A DNA stretch of 43,543 nt from Parcubacteria group bacterium GW2011_GWB1_45_10 (GCA_001001185.1 LCKC01000006.1:1-43543), one strand, 5' to 3'; shown: positions 1,862 through 36,676, counted from the first letter of the stretch. Made by a program: numbers and translations. Notes: generated from the sequence alone by a model not told the origin.

Positions 1862-3454
1862 ATGGCAGGAAATAACGCTAAAAAACTTGCTCCCCGACCC
1901 GCCAAAAACGAGACTCGCTCAACTTCAGTTGAGCGGCCGCCAGTGGTCGTGATTATGGGCCATGTTGACCACGGCAAAACTTCGCTTTTGGATTACATTA
2001 GAAAAGCCAGGGTCGCAGCCAGAGAGGCGGGCGGCATTACCCAGCATGTCGGCGCTTATGTTGTCAGACATCAAAGTTCAGATGCCGGAAATCAGATGTC
2101 CGATGTCCGAGAAATGAAAGAGATTACTTTCATTGACACGCCTGGCCACGAAGCGTTTTCAAAAATCAGGGAAAGAGGCGCCAAACTCGCGGACATTGCC
2201 GTCCTGGTGATTGCCGCTGAAGAAGGTTTGAAACCGCAAACAAGAGAAGCGCTGAAGCTGATTCAAGACTCAAAAATGCCGTTTGTCATTGCCCTGAACA
2301 AAATTGACCTGCCGAACGCCAACCAAGACAGAGTCAAACAGCAACTGGCTGAGCTTGAAGTTTATGTTGAAGACTGGGGCGGCAAAATCCCCTGCCTTGG
2401 CATCTCGGCCAAAACCGGACAAGGTATCAACGAGCTTTTGGAAATGATTTTGCTGATGGCGGAGATGGAAGAGCTAAAAGCCAGTCCTGAAGCTGAACCC
2501 AAAGGCGTGATTATTGAATCTTCGCTTGAACCCCAGGAAGGCGTTACGGCCACGGCGATTATTCTTGACGGCAAAATATCGCTTGGCCAAACAATCTACA
2601 CTGAAACCGCCGAAGCCAAAATCAAGAGCCTGGAAAATTTCCTTGGCGAAAGAGTCAAGTCTTTAAGCTTTTCTTCGCCGGCCGTGATTACCGGCTGGGA
2701 CAAACAGCCTTTAGTCGGAGAAACGTTTTCGACGCAACCCTCTGACTCCGTTCAAAACAAGCCTGAAGCCCCGGTACCGCAAGAAATAAGCGCAGACGCA
2801 ATAACGCCCGCCTCCACTGAAAATTCCGGCATGGTGAATTCGCCGGCTGGCGGAGAAAAAACTTTTTCTTTGGTCTTGAAAGCAGACGTTGCCGGATCTT
2901 TGGAAGCTTTGGAAGCGATTGTCAACCAGTTGTTTGTCGAAACCGAAATCAAACCAATCATCCAGGAAAAATCCGCCGGGCCGATTAATCTGGCTAACCT
3001 GAAGATCGCCGAATCAACCGGCAGTGTTGTTATCAGCTTCCGTTCAAAAATGAACCTTGACGTGAAAAACTACGCCAAAGACAGGAAAATCAAGATTTTT
3101 GAAAGCGGGATTATTTACGAACTCCAGGAAAAACTCAAAAAGCTTTTGGTGGAAACTCAAAAACCCGACGAAGAAAAAATCTCCGGCCAGCTGGAAATTT
3201 TGGAGATTTTTTCCGAAAAAGACAAGAAAAACCATCAGGTTGTCGGCGGCCGGCTTTTTGAAGGCCGGGTCAAAAAAAATCAGAGATTCAGCTTTAAAAA
3301 GACTGATGGCCAGGTTTTTGACGGCAAGGTTTTGAGCATCAAAAAAGGCAAACAGGCAATGGAGTCTGCCGAAGCGGTTAATGAAATCGGACTCCAGATT
3401 GAAACCTCAGGCGCAGTGGAAAAAGGCGACAATTTTGAGTTCAGGGAAAAATAA
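1862..3454 (+). CDS. infB: translation initiation factor IF-2 (short form without the N-terminal region)
   Basis: G-domain motifs [20 protein letters not shown] and NKID, plus C-terminal IF-2 domains. ATG 1862 (MAGNNAKK) is preferred over the GTG at 1832. Confidence 0.95.
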
Positions 3455-4365: not shown

Positions 4366-5118
4366 ATGAATGTCTTAACTCGTCTTTTTATATTTGGAAC
4401 AATTTTTGTTTTAGTACTCGCGACTCTAAATTTGTATAGTGGGAGTTTTGATGTTTTGCGCTGGGCGGTGTTTATATCCGGTTTGGCTCTTATCTACACC
4501 ATCTATCGAAGTGGTACTATTGGGTGGGTTATTGTTTTTACCGCAATCAGCATAGTATTCAATCCGTTTTATCAGTTTTTAAATTTAGAAAAAAATATTT
4601 GGCGAGGGGTGGATGTTTTTGTGATTGTGACATTTTCTATATTTCTCTACCGTTATTATGGCTTATATAAAAAAGGGGTAGAATTTGAAAAATATGTTTC
4701 TTCTTTATTCCCCCATGACATTTGGGTGATTGTAGACCGAACAAAAGATTCTTCAAAAAAACTTGGACGTTTAGTGGAATCAGATACAAATCCAGATTTC
4801 ACTTTTCGGCACATCACAACGGGAAAGATAGTAGCGGTCGAGTGTAAATTTCATTCCTATTTTTACAAAGGTAAGTATGGAGATTCTGGTACTTGGTGGC
4901 GCAAAGATCAGGGAAAACGATATCAAGCTTATGGGGCAGGGCACAAAATACCGGTTTTTGTCGCGATAGGTATTGGCGGGAATCCTAAAAATCCCCAACG
5001 CTTGTTCTTTTGCCCTCTTGAAAAACTCAATAATGTCCCATATGAATTTATTACCGAAACTGATTTGAAACAATTTGAGAGGAAACGTGATGTACAGTTT
5101 TTATCAAATTCTTTCTAA
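4366..5118 (+). CDS. membrane-anchored NERD/Mrr-like PD-(D/E)XK nuclease-fold protein
   Basis: 250 aa. About 4 N-terminal TM helices are followed by GVEFEKYV...(N)PDF...IVAVECKF (E, PD and ExK motifs in the order expected for this fold). Confidence 0.55.
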   Translation: MNVLTRLFIFGTIFVLVLATLNLYSGSFDVLRWAVFISGLALIYTIYRSGTIGWVIVFTAISIVFNPFYQFLNLEKNIWRGVDVFVIVTFSIFLYRYYGLYKKGVEFEKYVSSLFPHDIWVIVDRTKDSSKKLGRLVESDTNPDFTFRHITTGKIVAVECKFHSYFYKGKYGDSGTWWRKDQGKRYQAYGAGHKIPVFVAIGIGGNPKNPQRLFFCPLEKLNNVPYEFITETDLKQFERKRDVQFLSNSF

Positions 5119-7534: not shown

Positions 7535-7888
7535 TTATCTTTCTAAGTTTTCGCAAATTTCGGTTTCTTCAAAACGAATCTCCGAAGAAATATCGTTCAA
7601 AGCGACGATGGAAAAATATTTCACTTTTAAAGACAGCGATTTCGCCAAAGCAATCTCTTCGGCGACGCCTGGAGATATTTTACCAAAAACCCAGACTTCG
7701 TCAGAGATTTTCACCAGGCTGTTGTTGGCTTCAATCAATCTTTGTCTTTCAATGCTGTCCATCAAAAAATAAGAAAACATCATAAAAGCCGAAAGCGGGG
7801 TGTGGTTTTTTTCCAAAACAAACTTGGTGATGTACTCGCGAAGATAAAAATTCTCCCGGGCAAAAGCAGTGAAAACGATTTTTGACAT
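7535..7888 (-). CDS. hypothetical protein
   Basis: 117-aa ORF packed tightly between the DD-carboxypeptidase gene and mraY. No confident family assignment. Confidence 0.55.
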   Translation of the reverse strand: MSKIVFTAFARENFYLREYITKFVLEKNHTPLSAFMMFSYFLMDSIERQRLIEANNSLVKISDEVWVFGKISPGVAEEIALAKSLSLKVKYFSIVALNDISSEIRFEETEICENLER

Positions 7889-8831: not shown

Positions 8832-9378
8832 TGTCTGTTTGTTTGATTAAATCAACCAAGCGTTGGTTCAGTGTTTCAAACTCCGGCAAATCTTTTTGAT
8901 TTGCCAAACCAAGCAGCTTCAAAAGTTCAAAAGACGGCTGGTACAAAAACGACAGACCCGACTTTTCTCTTTGGACCAAGCCCCTCATCAGCAAAGACCT
9001 TAAAATATAACTGGAGTTGACGCCGCGGATAAAATCAATTTCCGGACGCGAAATCGGCGCCCGATAAAGAATAATCGTCAAAACCTCAAGGCTTGAAGGC
9101 GTCAGGTCTTCTTCGGTGTCCTGACCCAAAAACTTTTCCAGGTAAGGATGATTTTCCGGTCTGGCGCCAAGCTGGATCTCTGTCTCGGTTCTGAGCAAAA
9201 CCAAACCCGAACTCGGGTTATTTGAAATTTTATCATGATATTCGGAAATCAGCTCTTTGAGCGCGACTTCCGAAAGATTCATTAATTCGCCGAGTTTTTT
9301 CACGGCTAACGGCTCGCCGTAAGCAAAAAGAATTGATTCAAGGATTGAAATTCGTTTTTGTTTTTCTTCGTCGGTCAT
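8812..9378 (-). CDS. scpB: segregation and condensation protein B
   Basis: 188 aa. Contains ILESILFAYGEPL and a winged-helix pattern, and lies downstream of scpA. Confidence 0.9.
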   Translation of the reverse strand: MTDEEKQKRISILESILFAYGEPLAVKKLGELMNLSEVALKELISEYHDKISNNPSSGLVLLRTETEIQLGARPENHPYLEKFLGQDTEEDLTPSSLEVLTIILYRAPISRPEIDFIRGVNSSYILRSLLMRGLVQREKSGLSFLYQPSFELLKLLGLANQKDLPEFETLNQRLVDLIKQTDNGEGQL

Positions 9379-10079
9379 GGCTGGTGGAGTTTCATTATTT
9401 TTATTTCACCAAAATCTTTAGCCTGCGAGAGCATGATGTTTTTTTCGCGGAACAGGAACAAAACCGCCAGAAAATTGATAATCACGTCAATCTTTTTCAT
9501 TGAACCGCCGGCAAGCGTATTAAAGCTCAAAACGGCCCGCGACTCGATTTTCAGAATAATTTCTTTGATTCTTTCTTCAACCGAAACCACCCGTTCAAGA
9601 TAACCGGACACTTTCGGAAGCAAAAACTTTTCCAAGGACAAAGACAGCTTTTTAAAAGCCTCAACCAGGCTTTCCAGGTCCAGGCGCTTGGGCGGTGAAA
9701 AAACCGGCTCCCGGCCCTGCCAAAGCTCTCTGGTAAAAATGCGGCTCTTGTTTGCCAAAATCTCTTTGACGATTTTGGCCTGATTTTTATACCGCCGATA
9801 CTCTTGCATCGCGTTTTCCAGGTCTTTTATCTCCGCTTCCTCTTCCTCGGTCAGATCAAGCATCGGCAAAAGTGTTTTTGATTTTATCAAAAGCAGGCGC
9901 GAAGCAACAACCAAAAAATCCGCCAGCTCGTTCGGGCTAAACTCCTGCTGGCTGATAATTTCCAGATATTGGTCAGTGACCTCGGCCAAAGCCACTTCGC
10001 AGATATCAAGTTTTTGCTGTTCAATCAGCTCAAGCAAAAGATCCAGCGGCCCTTCAAATTTTTCAATTTTTATCTTCAT
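9375..10079 (-). CDS. scpA: segregation and condensation protein A
   Basis: 234 aa with the FEGPLDLLLELIEQQKLDI N-terminus. Confidence 0.9.
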   Translation of the reverse strand: MKIKIEKFEGPLDLLLELIEQQKLDICEVALAEVTDQYLEIISQQEFSPNELADFLVVASRLLLIKSKTLLPMLDLTEEEEAEIKDLENAMQEYRRYKNQAKIVKEILANKSRIFTRELWQGREPVFSPPKRLDLESLVEAFKKLSLSLEKFLLPKVSGYLERVVSVEERIKEIILKIESRAVLSFNTLAGGSMKKIDVIINFLAVLFLFREKNIMLSQAKDFGEIKIMKLHQP

Positions 10080-10173
10080 CCCGTTAGAAGTTCCGGAATG
10101 ACCGTTTAATTGAACATTCGAATAAAGTTTTTGTTTGTTTTGCTAATAACATATCAAAGAATAACGATTACTT
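10075..10173. repeat. 99-bp leader element, copy A (identical to 12930-13028)
   Basis: Base-by-base identity over 99 nt. It contains ATCCCGTTAGAA at the scpA start and overlaps the 3' end of secA. Confidence 0.95.
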
Positions 10174-12586
10174 TGATAAGCCTTCCCAAGCTCAAAAAAA
10201 TGTTCCAGGAAAAATTGTCCAGAAGCTCTTTGAACATTTTATGGCCTTCATGCTTGTATTCAGAGATTGGCTGATGCTGAGCGTAATTTCTCAACCTGAC
10301 GGTGTCGGTTAAGTGTTCCATTGCCTCAAGGTGGTCTGTCCAAAGAATGTCCATAATCTGGAGCAGTCCGACTCTCAAAAACTCCGGGTCTTTCATCTCG
10401 GTTTTTTCAAAGAAAAACTTGGCGACCGATTGTTTCAGACTTTCGGGAGAATCAAACTCGTTTTTCAGACTTTGTGACAGATTAGTCAATGAATCAAGTT
10501 CACGCCAAACCGCATCTTTGTCAAAAGTTTCGCGAACCCGGCTTGAAATAAACAGCTCAAGAGCTTCGTCAATGGTTTTTTTCATAATTTCCTTCAGCTT
10601 TCCGCTATCGGCCGCCAAAATCTCTTTTCGCTTCCGGTAAATGGCATCTCTTTGCTTGTTCAAAACATCGTCATATTCAAGAATGTATTTTCTGGTGTCA
10701 AAGTTCGCGCCTTCAACCTTTTGCTGGGCTGAATCAAGCGCCTTGGAAACAAACTCGCTTTCAATCGGCTGGTCTTCAGGAAGCTTTAATCTCTGAATCA
10801 AACCGCGGATTTTGTCCGAACCGAAGATTCTCATCAAGTCGTCTTCCAAAGAAACAAAAAAAGAGGTTGAACCCGGATCGCCTTGGCGGCCGGAACGCCC
10901 GCGGAGCTGATTGTCAATTCTTCTGGCTTCGTGCCTTTCCGTGCCAATGACGTGAAGTCCGCCAAGACTTTTTATCAAATCTGATTCTTCGGCGGTTGAA
11001 GGATTGCCGCCCAGGATAATGTCCACGCCGCGGCCAGCCATGTTCGTCGCCACCGTGACTGCGCCTTTTTTGCCGGCTTGGGCAATCACCTCGGCTTCTT
11101 TTTCGTGCTGCTTGGCGTTTAAAACATTATGAGAGACACCCTGTCTTTTGAGCAAAGCTGACAGATGCTCGTTTTTTTCAATCGAAACCGTGCCGATTAA
11201 AACCGGCTGGCCTTTTTCATGCTTGTCTTTAACTTCTTTTACCAGCCAGTCAAACTTCGCTTTTTCCGTGACAAAAATCTTGTCGGAAAAATCCTTCCTG
11301 ACCAAAGGCTTATTCGGCGGAATCGGCAAAACATCCAGAAAATAAACCTTGGCAAACTCTTCACTTGAGGTCAGGGCCGTGCCGGTCATGCCGGAAAGAA
11401 TCTGATACATCCTGAAGTAATTCTGAATCGTGATGGTTGCTGAGGTCCGTGACTCTTCCTGGACGCGCAAGCCTTCTTTGGCTTCAATCGCTTGGTGCAG
11501 GCCGCCCGAATACCTCCGGCCGTGCATCAACCTGCCGGTGAACTCGTCGACAATGACGACTTCGCCGTCTTTGACAACGTAATTTTTGTCCCGCTTGAAC
11601 AAAAAATAAGCTTTCAAAGACTCTTCAAGGTGGTGAACCAAAACCAGATTATTGTCTTCGTAAATATCCCGGCCAAAAAGATCTTTGATTCTTTCAATCC
11701 CGGAATCCGTCAAAAACACAGAGTGCTTTTTTTCGTCAATCTCAACGTCTTTTTCCGCGTTCAAGCGGGGAACCGCCAAGGCAAACTCCCGATAAATCTT
11801 GGCGGCGTCCATGTCGGGCGAAGCAATAATCAAAGGCGTTCGGGCTTCGTCAATCAAAATACTGTCAACTTCGTCAATAATCGCAAAATAAAGCTCGCGC
11901 TGGGCCAGGTCGTCTTTCCGGTAAACCAAATTGTCTCTGAGGTAATCAAAACCGAACTGATGGTTGGTGCCATAGACAATCTCGGCCTGATAAACTTCTC
12001 TTCTTGAAACCGGCCTCAAAAAATCGTGAAAAACTTTGAAGCTGCCCAAGCTATCTCTTTGCCTGTCTTCCTGGGGTTCGCTCTTCCACTCGGGGTCGTA
12101 CAAAAAAGAGTTTTCATGGATCAAGCAGCCGACTTTGAGTCCCAAGAAGTGATAGATCTGTCCCATCCAAACCGTGTCACGCTGAGCCAGATAATCATTG
12201 ACCGTAATGATATGAACGCCCTTGCCGGTCAGGCCGTGAAGATAAGCCGGCAGGGTCGCGGCCAAAGTTTTGCCTTCGCCGGTTTTCATTTCCGCAATCT
12301 TCCCCTGGCTCAAAACCGCGCCGCCGACAATCTGCGAATCAAAATGTCTCTGGTTCAAAGTTCTTTTGGCGGCTTCCCTGACCAAAGCAAAAGCTTCCGG
12401 CATGAGCGTTTCCAGAGATTCGTTTTCCGCCCTTGCCTTCAACTCAAGGCTTTTTGCCTGAATCGCTTTGGCATCAAGCGAAGAAAAATCTTTTTCCAGT
12501 TCATTAACCGACTTAACCAAAGGCAAGAGCTTTTCAATCGCTTTTTGATTTGCGTCTTTAAAAATTGTTTTGAAAACTTTCAGCAC
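10154..12586 (-). CDS. secA: preprotein translocase ATPase SecA (no C-terminal Zn-finger tail)
   Basis: 810 aa. Motifs MKTGEGKTL, DEVDSILIDEARTPLIIS and TNMAGRGVDI. The GTG start abuts the hpf stop codon. Confidence 0.97.
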   Translation of the reverse strand: MLKVFKTIFKDANQKAIEKLLPLVKSVNELEKDFSSLDAKAIQAKSLELKARAENESLETLMPEAFALVREAAKRTLNQRHFDSQIVGGAVLSQGKIAEMKTGEGKTLAATLPAYLHGLTGKGVHIITVNDYLAQRDTVWMGQIYHFLGLKVGCLIHENSFLYDPEWKSEPQEDRQRDSLGSFKVFHDFLRPVSRREVYQAEIVYGTNHQFGFDYLRDNLVYRKDDLAQRELYFAIIDEVDSILIDEARTPLIIASPDMDAAKIYREFALAVPRLNAEKDVEIDEKKHSVFLTDSGIERIKDLFGRDIYEDNNLVLVHHLEESLKAYFLFKRDKNYVVKDGEVVIVDEFTGRLMHGRRYSGGLHQAIEAKEGLRVQEESRTSATITIQNYFRMYQILSGMTGTALTSSEEFAKVYFLDVLPIPPNKPLVRKDFSDKIFVTEKAKFDWLVKEVKDKHEKGQPVLIGTVSIEKNEHLSALLKRQGVSHNVLNAKQHEKEAEVIAQAGKKGAVTVATNMAGRGVDIILGGNPSTAEESDLIKSLGGLHVIGTERHEARRIDNQLRGRSGRQGDPGSTSFFVSLEDDLMRIFGSDKIRGLIQRLKLPEDQPIESEFVSKALDSAQQKVEGANFDTRKYILEYDDVLNKQRDAIYRKRKEILAADSGKLKEIMKKTIDEALELFISSRVRETFDKDAVWRELDSLTNLSQSLKNEFDSPESLKQSVAKFFFEKTEMKDPEFLRVGLLQIMDILWTDHLEAMEHLTDTVRLRNYAQHQPISEYKHEGHKMFKELLDNFSWNIFLSLGRLIKVIVIL

Positions 12587-12934
12587 TTATTTGGATTCTT
12601 TCAGCCGGCGAGCCTTGTCCCTTGACCCAACCAAAGATTTTTCTTTTTCGGTTTTCAGCTGCCTCAAAATCTCTGATTCAACCACATCAATCAAGGCGTA
12701 AACATCCTCGCCTTTTTCCTGGCTGCGGATTATTTTTGCCGGCAGGTAAAGGTTCAAAACCAGCTCCAGTCTTTCGCCTTCGCGGCGATGGGAGATTCTT
12801 GAGATGGAGACGTTAAATAAAAAGTTTTTGCCGAACCTTTTGGCGAACTTTTCAATCTTTTCAAGCTTTAAGTTCAGGTAGCTGCGGATCTGCGACGTGA
12901 GCGTAAAATCATTGCTTGAAATTTGAAGTTTCAT
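12587..12934 (-). CDS. hpf: ribosome hibernation promoting factor / RaiA family
   Basis: 115 aa, S30AE-like fold pattern, conserved position upstream of secA. Confidence 0.8.
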   Translation of the reverse strand: MKLQISSNDFTLTSQIRSYLNLKLEKIEKFAKRFGKNFLFNVSISRISHRREGERLELVLNLYLPAKIIRSQEKGEDVYALIDVVESEILRQLKTEKEKSLVGSRDKARRLKESK

Positions 12935-13028
12935 CCCGTTAGAAGTTCCGGAATGACCGTTTAATTGAACATTCGAATAAAGTTTTTGTTTGTTTTGCTA
13001 ATAACATATCAAAGAATAACGATTACTT
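12930..13028. repeat. 99-bp leader element, copy B
   Basis: Identical to 10075-10173 at an offset of 2855 bp. It is followed by a decayed distal arm, TTCGGGAC (13027-13034). Confidence 0.95.
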
Positions 13029-13051
13029 CGGGACTGGGTTAAGTGCTGAAA

Positions 13052-13174
13052 CTATCTTCTCTTGGCAGCTTTTCTTCTTCTTTTCGGGGCTGCCTTTTTC
13101 GCGGCTTTCTTGGCCGGGCGCCTTCTTTTTGGCGCCGCTTTTTTCGCCGCCGCTTTTCTTCTTCTTACGGGCAT
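13052..13174 (-). CDS. 40-aa Lys/Arg/Ala-repeat basic protein (histone H1-like composition)
   Basis: From the ATG at 13174: MPVRRRKAAAKKAAPKRRRPAKKAAKKAAPKRRRKAAKRR*, with KKAAPKRRR occurring twice. A putative promoter lies upstream. The TTG-extended 64-aa version is less likely. Confidence 0.45.
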   Translation of the reverse strand: MPVRRRKAAAKKAAPKRRRPAKKAAKKAAPKRRRKAAKRR

Positions 13175-13278
13175 GGTTTTGAATTTTTTAATTGATAAAC
13201 GCCGACCGATCCCGCCTTGCGAAGACTGAACGTTTACCACTGACAAACTTGGGAACCGAATTAATAACTTATATCTTA

Positions 13279-17366: not shown

Positions 17367-17441
17367 TTTTCTTCTGTGTAGCGCGCACTCATTTTACCAA
17401 AAAACCAAGTAATTTCCATAAGTTTTTGACAATTAAGTTGA

Positions 17442-18464: not shown

Positions 18465-18926
18465 TTAAAACGGCGGATTGTCTTCCACTGGCCCGTCTTC
18501 CGGCAGATCAATCACCGGGATATCTTCCTGGCTGGATTTTGGCAGTTCCTGGGAAAACTCGTTTTTTGAGCCGGCAAAACTGTCCTGCTCAAAACCGCCG
18601 GCTTTCGGTCCAAACTGGACTCTTTCGGCAATGACCTCTGTCCGGTATTTTCTTTCGCCTGACGGCGCGTCCCAAGACCGGGTTTTTATCCTGCCTTCAA
18701 TCATCAAAAGTTTTCCTTTTTGGACATATTGCTTGCAGATCTCGGCTTGCCTGCCCCAGACAACCACGTTGTGAAACTCGGTTTCTTCCTGCTTCTGCCC
18801 CATTTTATCGTTCCAAACGCGGTTGGTCGCCAAAGGAAAACTGGCGACTGACTGACCTTGCGGCGTGGTTCTCAGCTCAATCTCTTTGACGACGCGGCCG
18901 ATTAAAAAAACTTTATTAAGATTCAT
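18465..18926 (-). CDS. ssb: single-stranded DNA-binding protein
   Basis: 153 aa. OB-fold N-terminus (MNLNKVFLIGRV) and an acidic C-terminal tip ending in PPF. Confidence 0.95.
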   Translation of the reverse strand: MNLNKVFLIGRVVKEIELRTTPQGQSVASFPLATNRVWNDKMGQKQEETEFHNVVVWGRQAEICKQYVQKGKLLMIEGRIKTRSWDAPSGERKYRTEVIAERVQFGPKAGGFEQDSFAGSKNEFSQELPKSSQEDIPVIDLPEDGPVEDNPPF

Positions 18927-19040
18927 CCCGTTAGAAATTTGAGAAAGTTAATTGTTTATTCGCAGAAACCGAGACGACAGTCGGCTTCGCCTTTATTATA
19001 AAAAAGACTCGCTTGTTTGTATTTGAATTTCTAACGGGAT
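18925..19040. repeat. leader element, rpsF-ssb junction copy (15-bp inverted arms, 86-nt loop)
   Basis: ATCCCGTTAGAAATT (18925-18939) is the exact reverse complement of AATTTCTAACGGGAT (19026-19040). The interior shares TTAATTG..ATTCG and TTGTTTGT blocks with the 99-bp copies. Confidence 0.85.
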
Positions 19041-19456
19041 TCATTGTCTAAAATTTCTTTTAGTTTCGTGTCCAGGACTTCTTCTGAAACCTGAACTCTT
19101 TCTTCCTGACGCGGCTCTTTCTGGAAAGACTCGATTTTTCTTGTCAAAGTCCTGAGTTTTCTGATTTTTTTCGGCTTTTTCAGCTCAAAAATCATTTTTC
19201 TCAAAATATTCGGCTCGTACTGCAAAGCTTTTCTGACTCCTTCAACGCTGGTTGAAGCGCCGGAAAACTGAAGTTCGCCCCAAAAACCGGTCTTTTGCTT
19301 TTTTATCGGATAAGCCAGGCTCCGCTTTTCCAGAGTTTTTTCCGTAAGAATTGAGCCGCCCGAATTAAGAATTGCTTGCCTGATTTTTTCTTGGTCTTCA
19401 AGAGGCAGGCTGTCTGTGCCCAGATCTTTCAGCCAAAAACAAATTTCATATTCCAT
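19031..19456 (-). CDS. rpsF: 30S ribosomal protein S6 with C-terminal extension
   Basis: 141 aa. MEYEICFWL..., the standard rpsF-ssb-rpsR gene order, and a charged C-terminal tail. Confidence 0.9.
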   Translation of the reverse strand: MEYEICFWLKDLGTDSLPLEDQEKIRQAILNSGGSILTEKTLEKRSLAYPIKKQKTGFWGELQFSGASTSVEGVRKALQYEPNILRKMIFELKKPKKIRKLRTLTRKIESFQKEPRQEERVQVSEEVLDTKLKEILDNESR

Positions 19457-31942: not shown

Positions 31943-31977
31943 TGGCTTAATCTTGGCTTATTTTACCACAAAACAAT

Positions 31978-32004
31978 AAATCCCGCGTTTTTCTTGCGGG
32001 ATTT
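31978..32004 (-). terminator. intrinsic terminator after 32003..32320
   Basis: AAATCCCGC/GCGGGATTT stem. On the minus strand it is followed by ATTGTTTTGTGG. Confidence 0.6.
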
Positions 32005-32320
32005 ATCCGTGATGAGCAAGCTGCCTGATTTTATCAAGCACGGCAATCAAAACAATTGCCAGGCTGATGAAAAATATCGGGCTGGCGTCAACCTTGTTTT
32101 CCGGGCCGAGCTGGCTAAACCCTGTTTCCGGAATCAGGGTCGGAAAAATAAGTTTTGGCTGCGGTGTCAGCTCAAGCAAAAAAGGCGTGACTGTTGGTGT
32201 TGCGGACAGTTCGCAGGCCAGATTGTTTTCACAGGTTATGGTTTCATAAACAACCCCGCCGGCGAAAAAAATCATGGTCAGCAAACACAAAACCGGGAAA
32301 ACCAGAAGTATGTATTTCAT
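32003..32320 (-). CDS. small surface protein with a possible sortase-type sorting signal
   Basis: 105 aa. N-terminal signal peptide, then LIPETG followed by the hydrophobic stretch IFFISLAIVLIAVL and the basic DKIRQ tail. Confidence 0.45.
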   Translation of the reverse strand: MKYILLVFPVLCLLTMIFFAGGVVYETITCENNLACELSATPTVTPFLLELTPQPKLIFPTLIPETGFSQLGPENKVDASPIFFISLAIVLIAVLDKIRQLAHHG

Positions 32321-34929: not shown

Positions 34930-35271
34930 TTAAGGTTGTTTAAAAATCAAAAAAATCGCGGCGGGCAAAACCAAAATCCAGCCAAGCCAAAGAAAAAATG
35001 CCAGCAAAAGAATCAGGGAATAAACCGCGACGCCGGAAAAAATTCTCAAACTCCGCAAAATCGGACCAAGAATCCGGCCAACCGGCGAATAATCTCCATA
35101 CAAAGGCTGAAGCCAAAGCCGGGCATTGATTAAAACCGCAAAGTTTTTGTCCAGCGTTCCCAAAAAATAAAACACCAAAGACCAGAACTGGTTTGAGCGC
35201 TCAAAATACCACCGTCGAAAAAAACAGATGAGTTCGTGGAAAAATTGCTTCAAAATAAAAGAAAACATCAA
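34930..35271 (-). CDS. small integral membrane protein
   Basis: 113 aa, 2-3 hydrophobic helices. Separated by a 3-nt gap from the Clp-like gene and a 19-nt gap from the EndoQ-like gene. Confidence 0.55.
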   Translation of the reverse strand: MMFSFILKQFFHELICFFRRWYFERSNQFWSLVFYFLGTLDKNFAVLINARLWLQPLYGDYSPVGRILGPILRSLRIFSGVAVYSLILLLAFFLWLGWILVLPAAIFLIFKQP

Positions 35272-35290: not shown

Positions 35291-36568
35291 TTAAAAAAGA
35301 GACTTTTGTGTTGTCAGACTTTCGCGTTCGCCATCACCAAAAATGCTGATTTTGCCGTACTCGCCGTCATAGCCCGGCTCAAGCCTAACCTTACCCTGGC
35401 GAATGCGAATGACTGCTTCGGCAATCTGCGGCAAAAGATTTTGTTTTAAATCAGACTCTTTCATTTCAAGCAAAACATACAATTCCGGCGCAACGCTTTT
35501 GACGATTTCTTCGTACTGAAACCAGACGCCCTTGGTGTTTTTGCTGACACCTAAGGCATCGGCAATAATCTCGTCAAAAGGCACGGTGCTCAAGTATGAT
35601 TTTGCCCATGAGGGCTTGAATCCCTGCGGTCTTGATTTATCGGCCAGTTCATCAACTCTGGCCATGACCCCGACAGTCACGGGCTTGCCGCATTTCGGAC
35701 AAAGACCTTTATTATTTTTCGTTTCTTCCGGCGACAAGCTGGTTTTGCACGCCGCGTGGCCGTCGTAATGGTACCGGCCTTCTTCAGGAAACATTTCCAC
35801 GGTGCCAAAAAGCCGGTTGTCTCTGGTTTTCAAAGCTTGCATCATCTCAAAATAAGACAGCTCGCAGTCAAACACTGTCGCTTCCCGGCCGATTCGCGGC
35901 AAAGAATGCGAATCAGAACTGGAAATAATCGCTTTGTTATCCAAAAACGGAATGCGCCAGTTCATCTCCGGGCTTGAAGACAACCCGGTTTCAATGGCAA
36001 AAATCTGCGGTTCCAGCTCGTCAAAACATTCCCGCAAAGAATCAAACCCGGATTTTGAACCGAAGACGCCGAACCACGGCGTCCAGACATGAGCCGGAAT
36101 CAAAGCGCAGTCTTTGTCAGTTTCCAATAAAATCTTGAACAGCTCTTTTGAATCAATACCGATAATCGGTCGGCCGTCAGACGCCAGCTTGCCGACCCAG
36201 GAAAGTTTGGCATTGATTTTTTCCACATCTTCAATCGTCGGCGCGTAAACCAGATGATGGACCCTTCTGACGCGGCCGTTTTTTGAATAAATGCAGGAAA
36301 TTTCGCCGGACAGAACAAACCTGGTTTTTTCCTGGTCAAAAGGCTGTTTTGAATCGCAGAACTTTTTTTTCAGCTTGAACAAACCTGGTTCTGCCGGCTC
36401 TAATTTGTTTTTAATCTCGGAAAACCAAGTTGGGTGAGTGAAGTCGCCGGTGCCAAGAACTTGCAGGCCCTTTTTAACACCCCACAAAGCCAGGTTTTCC
36501 AAAACCATCTGCGGGCTGACGGCCCGGGCGTATTTTGAATGAATCTCAATGTCGGCGTAAAACTTCAT
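35291..36568 (-). CDS. endonuclease Q-like PHP-domain protein
   Basis: 425 aa. The N-terminus is ADIEIHSKYARAVS...LGTGDFTHPTWF. It also has a C-terminal Zn-finger, CPKCGKPVTVGVMARVDELA. Confidence 0.7.
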   Translation of the reverse strand: MKFYADIEIHSKYARAVSPQMVLENLALWGVKKGLQVLGTGDFTHPTWFSEIKNKLEPAEPGLFKLKKKFCDSKQPFDQEKTRFVLSGEISCIYSKNGRVRRVHHLVYAPTIEDVEKINAKLSWVGKLASDGRPIIGIDSKELFKILLETDKDCALIPAHVWTPWFGVFGSKSGFDSLRECFDELEPQIFAIETGLSSSPEMNWRIPFLDNKAIISSSDSHSLPRIGREATVFDCELSYFEMMQALKTRDNRLFGTVEMFPEEGRYHYDGHAACKTSLSPEETKNNKGLCPKCGKPVTVGVMARVDELADKSRPQGFKPSWAKSYLSTVPFDEIIADALGVSKNTKGVWFQYEEIVKSVAPELYVLLEMKESDLKQNLLPQIAEAVIRIRQGKVRLEPGYDGEYGKISIFGDGERESLTTQKSLF

Positions 36569-36615
36569 CCCGTTAGAATAACATATATAAAAATAACGAC
36601 TACTTCTAACGGGAT
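36567..36615. repeat. leader element, minimal copy (12-bp inverted arms, 25-nt loop)
   Basis: ATCCCGTTAGAA (36567-36578) and TTCTAACGGGAT (36604-36615). The left arm overlaps the ATG of the EndoQ-like gene. Confidence 0.85.
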
Positions 36616-36676
36616 TTATTAACGTATTTTACCTCCACACTTACCTTTTAGTAAACGTGTGAATTTACACCTTTTG

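What the first reader, a model, noticed from the sequence alone, without database searches (positions are those of the whole stretch)
36567..36615. Hairpin element family whose terminal inverted repeat ATCCCGTTAGAA lies flush against start codons
TTCTAACGGGAT immediately precedes the ATG of four minus-strand genes and donates its AT: scpA, hpf, ssb and the EndoQ-like gene. At 36567-36615 it forms a perfect 12-bp stem with a 25-nt loop. At 18925-19040 it forms a 15-bp stem with an 86-nt loop. The two 99-bp copies share the loop-proximal block TAACATAT.AAA.AATAACGA.TACTT with the minimal copy, but their distal arm is decayed (TTCGGGAC, 13027-13034) or lost. Other genes in the window lack this leader, and most lack an SD. 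A randomly inserting MITE/REP element would not land flush with a start codon four times. The element therefore either carries initiation signals or is retained as a hairpin that occludes the start codon, for translational control or RNase III-type processing.
Basis: partly seen in the sequence, partly recalled or inferred. Interest (0 to 1): 0.8.

Follow-up and report, generated by a model that had tools for sequence, protein, structure and literature searches.

The report
Mini-transposon that nests at start codons
The hairpin is a copy of a tiny mobile DNA element, found across ultra-small groundwater bacteria (CPR/Patescibacteria), that inserts exactly at the start codon of a gene and rebuilds that codon, a habit the prokaryotic MITE review and full-text searches I checked do not mention.

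Summary

- **What it is.** ATCCCGTTAGAA...TTCTAACGGGAT is the terminal inverted repeat of a non-autonomous DNA transposon (MITE) of about 50-130 nt. A close relative has the empty rpsF/ssb junction ...GATGAATCTTAA. The window has the same junction split by the 116-nt element plus a target-site duplication.
- **How general.** Of 140 non-redundant full copies from many CPR lineages, 112 or more have one end flush with the ATG of a real gene. About 105 different gene families are involved.
- **How the start codon survives.** The element proper is TCCCGTTAGAA...TTCTAACGGGA. It duplicates 4 bp (T-G-R-N). Its last base plus the duplicated TG rebuilds the start codon. The old start codon stays upstream as a relic.
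- **Upstream reading frame.** From the relic, a frame crosses the element without a stop in 44% of copies, against about 15% expected. It then ends at stop codons built into the gene-side arm: TAA 4 nt before the ATG, or TGA overlapping it. This suggests translation is passed on by termination-reinitiation. That step is inferred, not shown.
- **The window's copies.** Three of the four are strain-specific deletion derivatives, including the 49-nt hairpin.
- **Still unknown.** No transposase was found. Why the element sits so exclusively at start codons is unexplained.

The parts
36567..36615 (-). 49-nt mini copy with both 12-nt arms intact. It is an internal 57-nt deletion derivative of the 106-nt element that other strains carry at this site. 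It lies flush with the start of the 425-aa MJ0043_C-domain gene (35291-36568).
36616..36619 (-). Degenerate relic of the pre-insertion start codon and left copy of the duplication. It reads ATAA on the minus strand, where the right copy reads (A)TGAA.
36626..36631 (-). -10-like TAAAAT, 6 nt upstream of the relic. Before insertion this gene had the layout of a leaderless gene (TAAAAT-N6-ATG).
   Evidence: the same spacing is enriched across 111 copies
18925..19040 (-). Full 116-nt copy (15-bp stem) between rpsF and ssb. The rpsF stop TAG (19031-19033) lies in the gene-distal arm. The ssb ATG (18926-18924) is rebuilt at the gene-proximal arm.
19041..19044 (-). Relic ATGA, the original ssb start codon and left copy of the duplication. 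The empty site in a relative reads ...GATGAATCTTAATAAAG.
18931..19044 (-). Upstream ORF of 37 codons (MNPVRNSNTNKRVFFIIKAKPTVVSVSANKQLTFSNF*). It runs from the relic ATG through the whole element to the TAA in the proximal arm, 4 nt before the ssb ATG.
10078..10173 (-). Truncated copy flush with scpA (9375-10079). A 29-nt deletion removed the relic and the distal arm that strains L135, L136 and L138 still have. As a result secA (10154-12586) now reads 20 nt into the element.
12933..13028 (-). Truncated copy flush with hpf (12587-12934). A deletion of about 75 nt removed half of a terminator hairpin, the GCTAAAAT promoter-like box, the relic ATGA and the distal arm, all present in strain L136. 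The element-derived 96 nt are identical to the scpA copy (mismatches lie in the coding flank).

Best explanation
**What it is.** The hairpin is a copy of a non-autonomous DNA transposon (MITE). The element proper is TCCCGTTAGAA-(2 covarying nt)...(2 covarying nt)-TTCTAACGGGA, 50-130 nt long. The family is widespread in CPR/Patescibacteria.

**Shown.**
- It integrates between the A and the T of a start codon and duplicates 4 bp (T-G-R-N).
- After insertion, the last base of the element (A; G in a variant that yields GTG) plus the duplicated TG rebuilds the start codon flush against the gene-side arm.
- The original start codon remains as a relic next to the other arm.
- Upstream genes that overlapped the start codon are closed by the TGA in the relic or by the TAG in the distal arm.

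**Inferred.**
- The relic keeps the gene's original initiation context. About 30% of targets had a leaderless-type promoter, and others were operon junctions.
- The relic opens a short ORF (M-N/D-P-V-R...) that runs through the element.
- That ORF stops at TAA, 4 nt before the rebuilt ATG, or at the TGA of ATGA.
- Ribosomes translating it would melt the 14-bp stem that otherwise buries the start region, then reinitiate at the gene.
- On this reading the element is a selfish insertion built so that both neighbouring genes stay expressed.

**Why it persists at start codons.** I attribute this to a modest target preference (TNNA, often ATGRA) combined with selection. These may be the sites where the element is translated through and so does little harm. 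The size of the bias is not fully explained.

**In this window.**
- The ssb copy is a complete example.
- The scpA, hpf and MJ0043_C-gene copies are immobilised or shortened derivatives.
For: **Mobility.**
- Empty versus filled rpsF/ssb junction.
- The two bases flanking the 12-mer arms match left and right in 93 of 112 copies: GA 72, GG 18, GT 3.
- The outermost base covaries with the far flank, which gives a 4-bp duplication.
- Identical 111-nt copies sit at hpf and scpA in one strain. A different family member sits at hpf in another strain.
- Three or more other MITE families with TCC...GGA ends occupy the same ssb site in relatives.

**Generality.**
- Paired arms occur in Saccharibacteria, Nomura-, Kaiser-, Kerfeld-, Doudnabacteria, Paceibacterota and Omnitrophota MAGs, and in 119 metagenome loci.

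**Start-codon flushness.**
- 112 of 140 copies have one end at an ATG followed by an ORF of at least 40 codons.
- The expectation is 25% or less if any non-coding ATGRA were equally acceptable (p = 3e-42).
- The downstream genes all differ.
- Pfam N-terminal domains begin at residue 2-3 in 6 of the 8 downstream proteins scanned.

**Upstream ORF.**
- The interior is open in the relic frame in 49 of 111 copies. The other five frames give 90 of 555, and shuffles about 15.5 of 111 (odds ratio 4.1, p = 9e-10).
- Open copies end in TAA (29) or TGA (14) far more often than they fuse with the gene (6). Closed copies are uniform across the three length classes: 21, 20, 21.

**Polarity.** The ends are asymmetric, and the element's orientation relative to the gene is fixed.

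**Upstream gene stops.** 13 fall in the relic TGA and 9 in the distal-arm TAG.

**Hairpin stability.**
Against: - No transposase or autonomous partner was found in 1.8 Mb of fetched DNA. The mobilising enzyme and its superfamily are unknown.
- 56% of copies have an early stop in the upstream ORF. This includes the family that gave the window's scpA, hpf and MJ0043_C-gene copies (MNPVRSNRYSLICY*). The relay cannot be the only way the gene stays expressed.
- No expression data were available. Translation of the upstream ORF and reinitiation are inferences from sequence statistics.
- Copies are not fully independent, although only 19 of 6105 pairs show any interior similarity.
- My searches required exact 12-mers. 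This biases the outermost duplicated bases, and the sample is not a whole-genome census.
- Target preference plus tolerance does not account numerically for how rare ordinary intergenic copies are.
Confidence: 0.7

Rival explanations
1. Selfish MITE with no built-in relay. The element prefers ATGRA-like targets, and only insertions that rebuild a start codon survive. The open upstream frame is a by-product, for example of young copies descended from a founder that happened to be open.
For: Duplication and empty site. 56% of copies have early stops. There is no promoter or SD signal inside the element. The window's main family has a closed upstream ORF.
Against: The relic frame is open four times more often than the other five frames, even though interiors are essentially unrelated. 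Among open copies, termination in the arm is favoured over fusion, 43 to 6. Polarity relative to the gene is fixed. ATGRA preference plus neutrality predicts about 75% intergenic copies, whereas 20% or fewer are seen.
Confidence: 0.25
2. The hairpin is kept by the host as a regulatory device that occludes the start codon or provides an RNase III-type processing site, perhaps generating leaderless mRNAs cut at the AUG.
For: Stable 12-15-bp stems include the A and U of the AUG. Positions 13-14 of the arms covary, with 97% and 95% paired. Many target genes were leaderless-type before insertion. Correia elements in Neisseria are cut by RNase III at their inverted repeats (PMC10969869).
Against: Three of the four window copies have lost the distal arm or most of the loop in this strain while the genes remain intact, so the hairpin is dispensable there. 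Arm conservation with free interiors is equally what transposase recognition predicts. No data on cleavage were available. About 105 unrelated genes carry the element, which fits spread better than a regulon.
Confidence: 0.15
3. Portable promoter or leader. The element brings an outward-facing promoter, or an SD-independent leader, that takes over expression of the gene.
For: By eye, many interiors contain TGnTAnnnT or TATAAT-like boxes. The window's hpf copy lost its upstream promoter by deletion, yet the gene is intact.
Against: -10-like motifs are as frequent on the antisense strand as on the sense strand. For extended -10 motifs the counts are 15 sense and 17 antisense; for TATAAT-like motifs, 47 and 56. 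The interiors are simply AT-rich.
Confidence: 0.1
4. Single-strand (IS200/IS605-type) palindrome-associated element that inserts 3' of a fixed tetranucleotide (ATGA), or alternatively an integron attC-like recombination site.
For: Insertion is orientation-specific next to a short motif. There are hairpins next to the ends in many copies. GTTAGA/TCTAAC resembles the integron core sites GTTRRRY/RYYYAAC (my recollection of those consensus sequences).
Against: There are perfect 14-bp terminal inverted repeats. The flanking repeat varies (TGAA, TGGA, TGTA, TTGA, TCAA, TAAA, TATG) and covaries between the two sides, even among elements with related interiors. The core-like motifs are in the opposite order to attC (the sequence itself).
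Confidence: 0.04

Closest known systems
Correia elements (CREE/NEMIS) of Neisseria
   Same: A MITE of about 100-150 nt with terminal inverted repeats and a short target duplication. It is often co-transcribed with adjacent genes, and its arms form an RNA hairpin that affects the mRNA (RNase III cleavage; PMC10969869).
   Different: As I recall, Correia elements duplicate TA and have 26-bp repeats of unrelated sequence. They sit at variable distances from genes. They are not reported to insert inside the start codon, rebuild it, or carry an arm-terminated upstream ORF. The host phylum also differs.
Rickettsia palindromic elements (RPEs)
   Same: Palindromic MITE-like elements whose design is compatible with translation. 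Insertion leaves the host gene functional (PMC10969869).
   Different: RPEs insert in frame inside coding regions and become part of the protein. Here only 6 of 49 open copies fuse with the gene. The rest stop in the arm just before the rebuilt start codon.
Translational coupling at overlapping or adjacent cistrons (ATGA, TAAnnnnATG) and leader-peptide ORFs
   Same: The proposed mechanism is the same: a ribosome finishing an upstream ORF within a few nucleotides of the next AUG reinitiates and also unfolds inhibitory structure. The stop-to-start geometry here is UAACGGGAUG or AUGA.
   Different: Here the upstream cistron would be supplied by a mobile element together with a duplicated start codon. 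Function is inferred from sequence statistics only.
REPINs/BIMEs (REP doublets mobilised by RAYT transposases) and IS200/IS605-derived PATEs
   Same: Short palindromic non-coding repeats that form large hairpins. In many copies there are small hairpins next to the conserved ends.
   Different: As I recall, those elements lack target-site duplications and true terminal inverted repeats, and they lie mostly at 3' ends of genes. Here there is a covarying 4-bp duplication and a position at the start codon.

Membership tests
MITE (non-autonomous DNA transposon with terminal inverted repeats) | Terminal inverted repeats | tested here: met
   12 invariant positions plus 2 covarying positions, paired in 97% and 95% of 111 copies.
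MITE (non-autonomous DNA transposon with terminal inverted repeats) | Target-site duplication flanking the element | tested here: met
   Flanks match in 93 of 112 copies. The outermost base covaries, which gives a 4-bp duplication T-G-R-N.
MITE (non-autonomous DNA transposon with terminal inverted repeats) | Empty site in a related genome that equals the filled site minus the element and one copy of the duplication | tested here: met
   L258-L260 read ...GGCGATGAATCTTAATAAAG. The window reads ...ACAATGA|ATCCCG..116 nt..CGGGAT|GAATCTTAATAAAG.
MITE (non-autonomous DNA transposon with terminal inverted repeats) | Small size, no transposase gene, multiple copies per genome | tested here: met
   Copies are 49-133 nt. 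There are four in the 43.5-kb window, plus tandem and multiple copies in L038, L114, L154, L217, L218 and L242.
MITE (non-autonomous DNA transposon with terminal inverted repeats) | Autonomous partner with the same ends that encodes the transposase | tested here: inconclusive
   No pair of matching ends 0.4-4 kb apart encloses a transposase in 1.8 Mb of fetched loci. Whole genomes could not be searched.
Correia element (Neisseria) | TA duplication and the Correia 26-bp repeat sequence | tested here: not met
   The duplication is TGRN and the arms are TCCCGTTAGAA. The Correia features are from my own knowledge.
Rickettsia palindromic element type | In-frame insertion within coding sequence, translated as part of the host protein | tested here: not met
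   Only 8 of 111 copies are open and in frame with the gene. 41 stop in the arm.
IS200/IS605-derived PATE | No terminal inverted repeats and no duplication; insertion 3' of one fixed tetra- or pentanucleotide | tested here: not met
   Inverted repeats are present. The flanking repeat varies and covaries.
Integron attC site | Core sites in the order RYYYAAC ... GTTRRRY on the hairpin strand | tested here: not met
   The order here is GTTAGAA ... TTCTAAC on both strands. The attC consensus is from my own knowledge.
Any curated RNA family (Rfam 15) | Covariance-model match | tested here: not met
   Only tRNAs match at gathering score in the window. There are no matches at E <= 1 on the ssb copy or on the full L001 copy.

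The most novel reading that the evidence does not exclude
A CPR-wide superfamily of miniature transposons (several arm families sharing TCC...GGA ends) has specialised in living inside start codons. It cuts between the A and the TG, rebuilds the codon with its own last base, and keeps the host gene expressed. It would do this by turning the old start codon into the start of a disposable upstream ORF that ends in the element's own arm. Targeting may be active, through recognition of the start-codon or transcription-start context, rather than only filtered by selection. In these SD-poor, leaderless-rich genomes, such insertions could also be co-opted as translation-dependent switches.
Probability: 0.4. 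Interest if true: 0.9.

Novelty: new variant of a known kind. Interest (0 to 1): 0.8.

Why it matters
**A new class of permissive site.** Mobile elements are usually thought of as landing between genes or destroying them. This family shows a third option: inserting at the one nucleotide position where both neighbours survive. This works even when the two genes overlap, and the arms carry stop codons in the right frames.

**A new type of target.** If the relay is real, it is a natural, portable module for termination-reinitiation.

**A window on CPR translation.** CPR bacteria are largely uncultured and appear mostly SD-less.

**Practical uses.**
- The arms are a 12-14-nt tag that marks true start codons in CPR metagenomes.
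- Gene callers may mis-place starts or call the upstream ORFs as genes.
- Occupancy differs between strains, so the elements can serve as strain markers.

Tried and rejected
- **Host-evolved leader or SD substitute.** Rejected. There is no SD-like enrichment upstream, and an empty site exists.
- **Outward promoter inside the element.** -10-like motifs are equally common on both strands.
- **In-frame coding insertion.** Length mod 3 and stop positions argue against it.
- **2-bp or 6-bp duplication models.**
  - The 6th position matches in only 28% of copies.
  - Variant outer bases covary with the far flank, which favours 4 bp.
- **IS200/IS605-type insertion, integron attC, Helitron/IS91-like A|T insertion.** Rejected because of the inverted repeats, the covarying duplication and the order of the core-like motifs.
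- **Preference for particular genes.** The downstream proteins are almost all unrelated.
- **Link between leaderless context and an open upstream ORF.** None found: 14 of 32 against 35 of 79.
- **Autonomous element.** Long-range inverted-repeat searches found only neighbouring MITEs and an unrelated serine-recombinase island.
- **Phage carriage.** One hit in IMG/VR.
- **Extra copy at 31991-32002.** It is a terminator-like hairpin.
- **Literature.**
  - Full-text searches for the arm sequences returned only coincidental primer matches.
  - Searches for MITE, start codon and CPR terms found no description.
  - A 2024 review of prokaryotic MITEs never mentions start or initiation codons.

Full report
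**1. The observation**

The exact 12-mer ATCCCGTTAGAA occurs six times in the window: four times on the + strand (10078, 12933, 18925, 36567) and twice on the - strand (19029, 36604). By my arithmetic, chance would give about 0.005 exact hits.

Read on the minus strand, TTCTAACGGG is followed directly by the ATG of four ORFs:
- scpA, 9375-10079
- an S30AE/HPF gene, 12587-12934
- ssb, 18465-18926
- a 425-aa protein, 35291-36568, which carries a precomputed PF27218 MJ0043_C hit

All four start ATGAA.

The 36567-36615 hairpin has a 12-bp stem and a 25-nt loop. The 18925-19040 hairpin has a 15-bp stem and an 86-nt loop. Both are as described and fold much better than shuffles (z = -3.9 and -4.3).

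Only 2 of about 35 long ORFs in the window have a clear SD. The window comes from a CPR/Patescibacteria organism from the Rifle groundwater project. Its closest named SSB relative is Candidatus Brennerbacteria.

**2. The window's copies are derivatives of longer elements**

Other assemblies encode the same proteins but carry longer elements.

- **MJ0043_C gene.** They have a 106-nt element. The window's 49-nt hairpin is that element minus an internal 57 nt.
- **scpA.** Strains L135, L136 and L138 have a full 111-nt element preceded by ...AACAATGA. The window lost 29 nt, comprising the relic and the distal arm. As a result secA now reads into the element.
- **hpf.** Strain L136 has the full element preceded by TTTTTTAGGCTAAAATCTTGGTATGA. 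The window lost about 75 nt, including that promoter-like box.
- **Recent turnover.**
  - In L136 the hpf and scpA copies are identical.
  - In L135 the hpf site holds a different family member.
  - Occupancy therefore changes between strains.

**3. It is a mobile element**

A relative with 77% SSB identity has rpsF and ssb overlapping by 11 nt...TTTTAGGCGATGAATCTTAATAAAG. The window has ...TTTTAGACAATGA|ATCCCG...116 nt...CGGGAT|GAATCTTAATAAAG. This is an empty site against a filled site with a duplication.

Other relatives carry different small inverted-repeat elements at exactly this junction, singly, in tandem or nested. Their arms are ATCCATCACTTAGTTAAGAC and ATCCCGTAGTGAATTTTTGAC, among others. 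All have TCC...GGA ends and the same ATGA|...|GA flanks.

**4. It is widespread, and the start-codon position is general**

Even so, it returned paired arms in Saccharibacteria, Nomura-, Kaiser-, Kerfeld- and Doudnabacteria, Paceibacterota and two Omnitrophota MAGs. Single hits in other phyla look like chance.

- Of 140 non-redundant full copies, 112 have exactly one end flush with an ATG that opens at least 40 codons. Most of the remaining 28 are also ATG-flush but truncated, short or tandem. About 10 sit at non-ATG sites such as ATAA.
- The downstream proteins belong to about 105 different families.
- Where checked, the Pfam N-terminal domain starts at residue 2-3. This holds for MurG, TypA, TopA Toprim, RpiB, SSB and the PolA 5'-3' exonuclease domain. 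These are true N-termini.

**5. Anatomy of the junction**

Oriented by the gene, the left flank is A(98) T(104) G(97) A/G(82/25) out of 112. The right flank repeats G and then A/G. The two bases match left and right in 93 of 112 copies.

By-catch copies with non-canonical outer bases show that the outermost 'A' of ATCCCG belongs to the duplication, not to the repeat:
- GTCCCG...CGGGAT|GAG in L021, L077 and L177
- TATG|...|TATG in L124 and L016

A variant, ACCCCG...CGGGGT, gives a GTG start (L216, L157).

So the element proper is TCCCGTTAGAA...TTCTAACGGGA and the duplication is 4 bp (T-G-R-N). The element supplies only the first base of the new start codon. The exact-12-mer searches bias the first and fourth duplicated bases.

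Positions 13-14 of the arms vary but stay complementary, at 97% and 95%. Beyond that, pairing is at chance. The subterminal sequences differ between the two ends. Their polarity relative to the gene is fixed: the mirrored AGx motif occurs 47 times on the gene side and 4 times on the far side. Pairs with similar interiors share orientation 17 times and oppose it twice.

**6. What the pre-insertion sites looked like**

- A TANNNT box peaks 6-7 nt upstream of the relic ATG, in 32 of 111 copies. The background is about 3-4 per offset. This is the layout of leaderless genes.
- SD-like motifs are not enriched.
- In 22 copies the upstream gene overlapped the start codon. It now ends in the relic TGA (13 copies) or in the TAG of the distal arm (9 copies). 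The latter matches S6 here and SecA in the other strains, both ending ...NESR*.

**7. An upstream ORF**

From the relic ATG the frame reads M-N/D-P-V-R and continues into the element.

- The interior has no stop in that frame in 49 of 111 copies. The other two sense frames give 19 and 12. The antisense frames give 12-26. Shuffles give about 15.5. The odds ratio against the other five frames is 4.1, p = 9e-10.
- Peptide sequences are not conserved beyond what the arms encode.
- Open copies end at the arm's TAA, 4 nt before the ATG (29 copies), or at the TGA of ATGA (14 copies). Only 6 fuse with the gene. Closed copies are spread evenly over the three length classes.
- The ssb copy in the window is a full example: 37 codons at 18931-19044, ending ...TTC TAA CGGG ATG.
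- The family behind the scpA, hpf and MJ0043_C-gene copies has an early stop.

I read this as selection for ribosomes to traverse the element and terminate next to the rebuilt start. That is termination-reinitiation, which would also melt the stem holding the A and U of the AUG. This step is inference.

**8. What remains unexplained**

In 741 kb of the fetched contigs, ATGRA occurs 281 times at predicted starts, 862 times in non-coding DNA and 2741 times inside genes. ATNNA occurs 341, 8013 and 22695 times respectively.

Target preference plus tolerance of any non-coding site would therefore put at most 25% of copies at starts. At least 80% are observed there (p = 3e-42). Either targeting is more specific than the duplication shows, or copies elsewhere are selected against. 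One possible reason is that an untranslated 14-bp hairpin is polar.

No transposase was found.

**9. Comparison with known elements**

- Rfam has no match.
- The element meets the MITE criteria except for a known autonomous partner.
- It differs from Correia elements in duplication, arm sequence and position.
- It differs from RPEs, which are in-frame coding insertions.
- It differs from REPINs and PATEs, which lack a duplication and inverted repeats.
- It differs from attC sites in the order of the core-like motifs.
- Full-text searches found no description. A 2024 review of prokaryotic MITEs does not mention start codons. The held library is incomplete, so prior description cannot be excluded.

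**10. Verdict**

The argument against mobility is wrong.

My confidence that this is a MITE inserted at start codons with a duplication is about 0.95. My confidence in the translational relay is about 0.5. I file it as a new variant of a known kind, with high interest.

Noticed in passing
window 36626-36631, 31960s, 7656-7693, 17370-17407; L136 ~595-610: There is a recurrent promoter-like box, GGTAAAAT/GCTAAAAT (D7). It is often 6-9 nt upstream of an ATG (rpsF at 19456, the ORF at 35271, hpf, the MJ0043_C gene). Only 2 of about 35 genes have an SD. The organism appears to rely largely on leaderless or SD-independent initiation.
   Followed up: partly
L261-L265 (relatives), rpsF/ssb junction: At least three further small inverted-repeat element families occupy the identical ATGA|..|GA site, singly, in tandem or nested. 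Their arms are ATCCATCACTTAGTTAAGAC, ATCCCGTAGTGAATTTTTGAC and ACCCCTCACTTAACAAAGAC, plus a roughly 30-nt mini hairpin, TCCCGCACTTAA..TTAAGTTGTGGGA. This suggests a superfamily sharing TCC...GGA ends.
   Followed up: partly
L137 (JGI 3300025167), 1380-1580: This contig joins the upstream region of hpf directly to scpA through one element copy, so hpf and secA are missing. It is either recombination between the two identical copies or an assembly collapse of the repeat.
   Followed up: no
window 13052-13246 (-): A 64-aa Lys/Ala/Arg-rich ORF (...AAKKAAPKRRRPAKKAAKKAAPKRRRKAAKRR) lies just upstream of hpf. In other strains it is followed by a terminator-like hairpin that is half deleted in the window.
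   Followed up: no
window 31975-32010: AAATCCCGC-GTTTTTCTT-GCGGGATTT is a terminator-like hairpin after the 105-aa ORF 32003-32320. It produced the 2-mismatch motif hit and is not an element copy.
   Followed up: yes
L143 9235-10941: A 568-aa protein that looks like a large serine recombinase from its sequence motifs (not run against Pfam) is flanked by 21-bp inverted repeats and duplicated tRNA-like sequence. It is probably an integrative element in a tRNA gene and is unrelated to the MITE.
   Followed up: partly
L114 7672-7897, L218 6130-6368, L245 ~4817-4900: Tandem elements are separated by a single copy of the duplication (CGGGA-TGAA-TCCCG). This is as expected if the relic or the rebuilt start codon of one copy is itself a target.
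   Followed up: partly
L266 (IMG/VR UViG 3300031952_000413) 3125-3205: This is the only complete hairpin found in 2.9 million viral contigs. The family is essentially chromosomal.
   Followed up: no
L056, L074: Two MAGs labelled Omnitrophota carry start-codon-flush copies. This could reflect a real spread beyond CPR or mis-binning.
   Followed up: no
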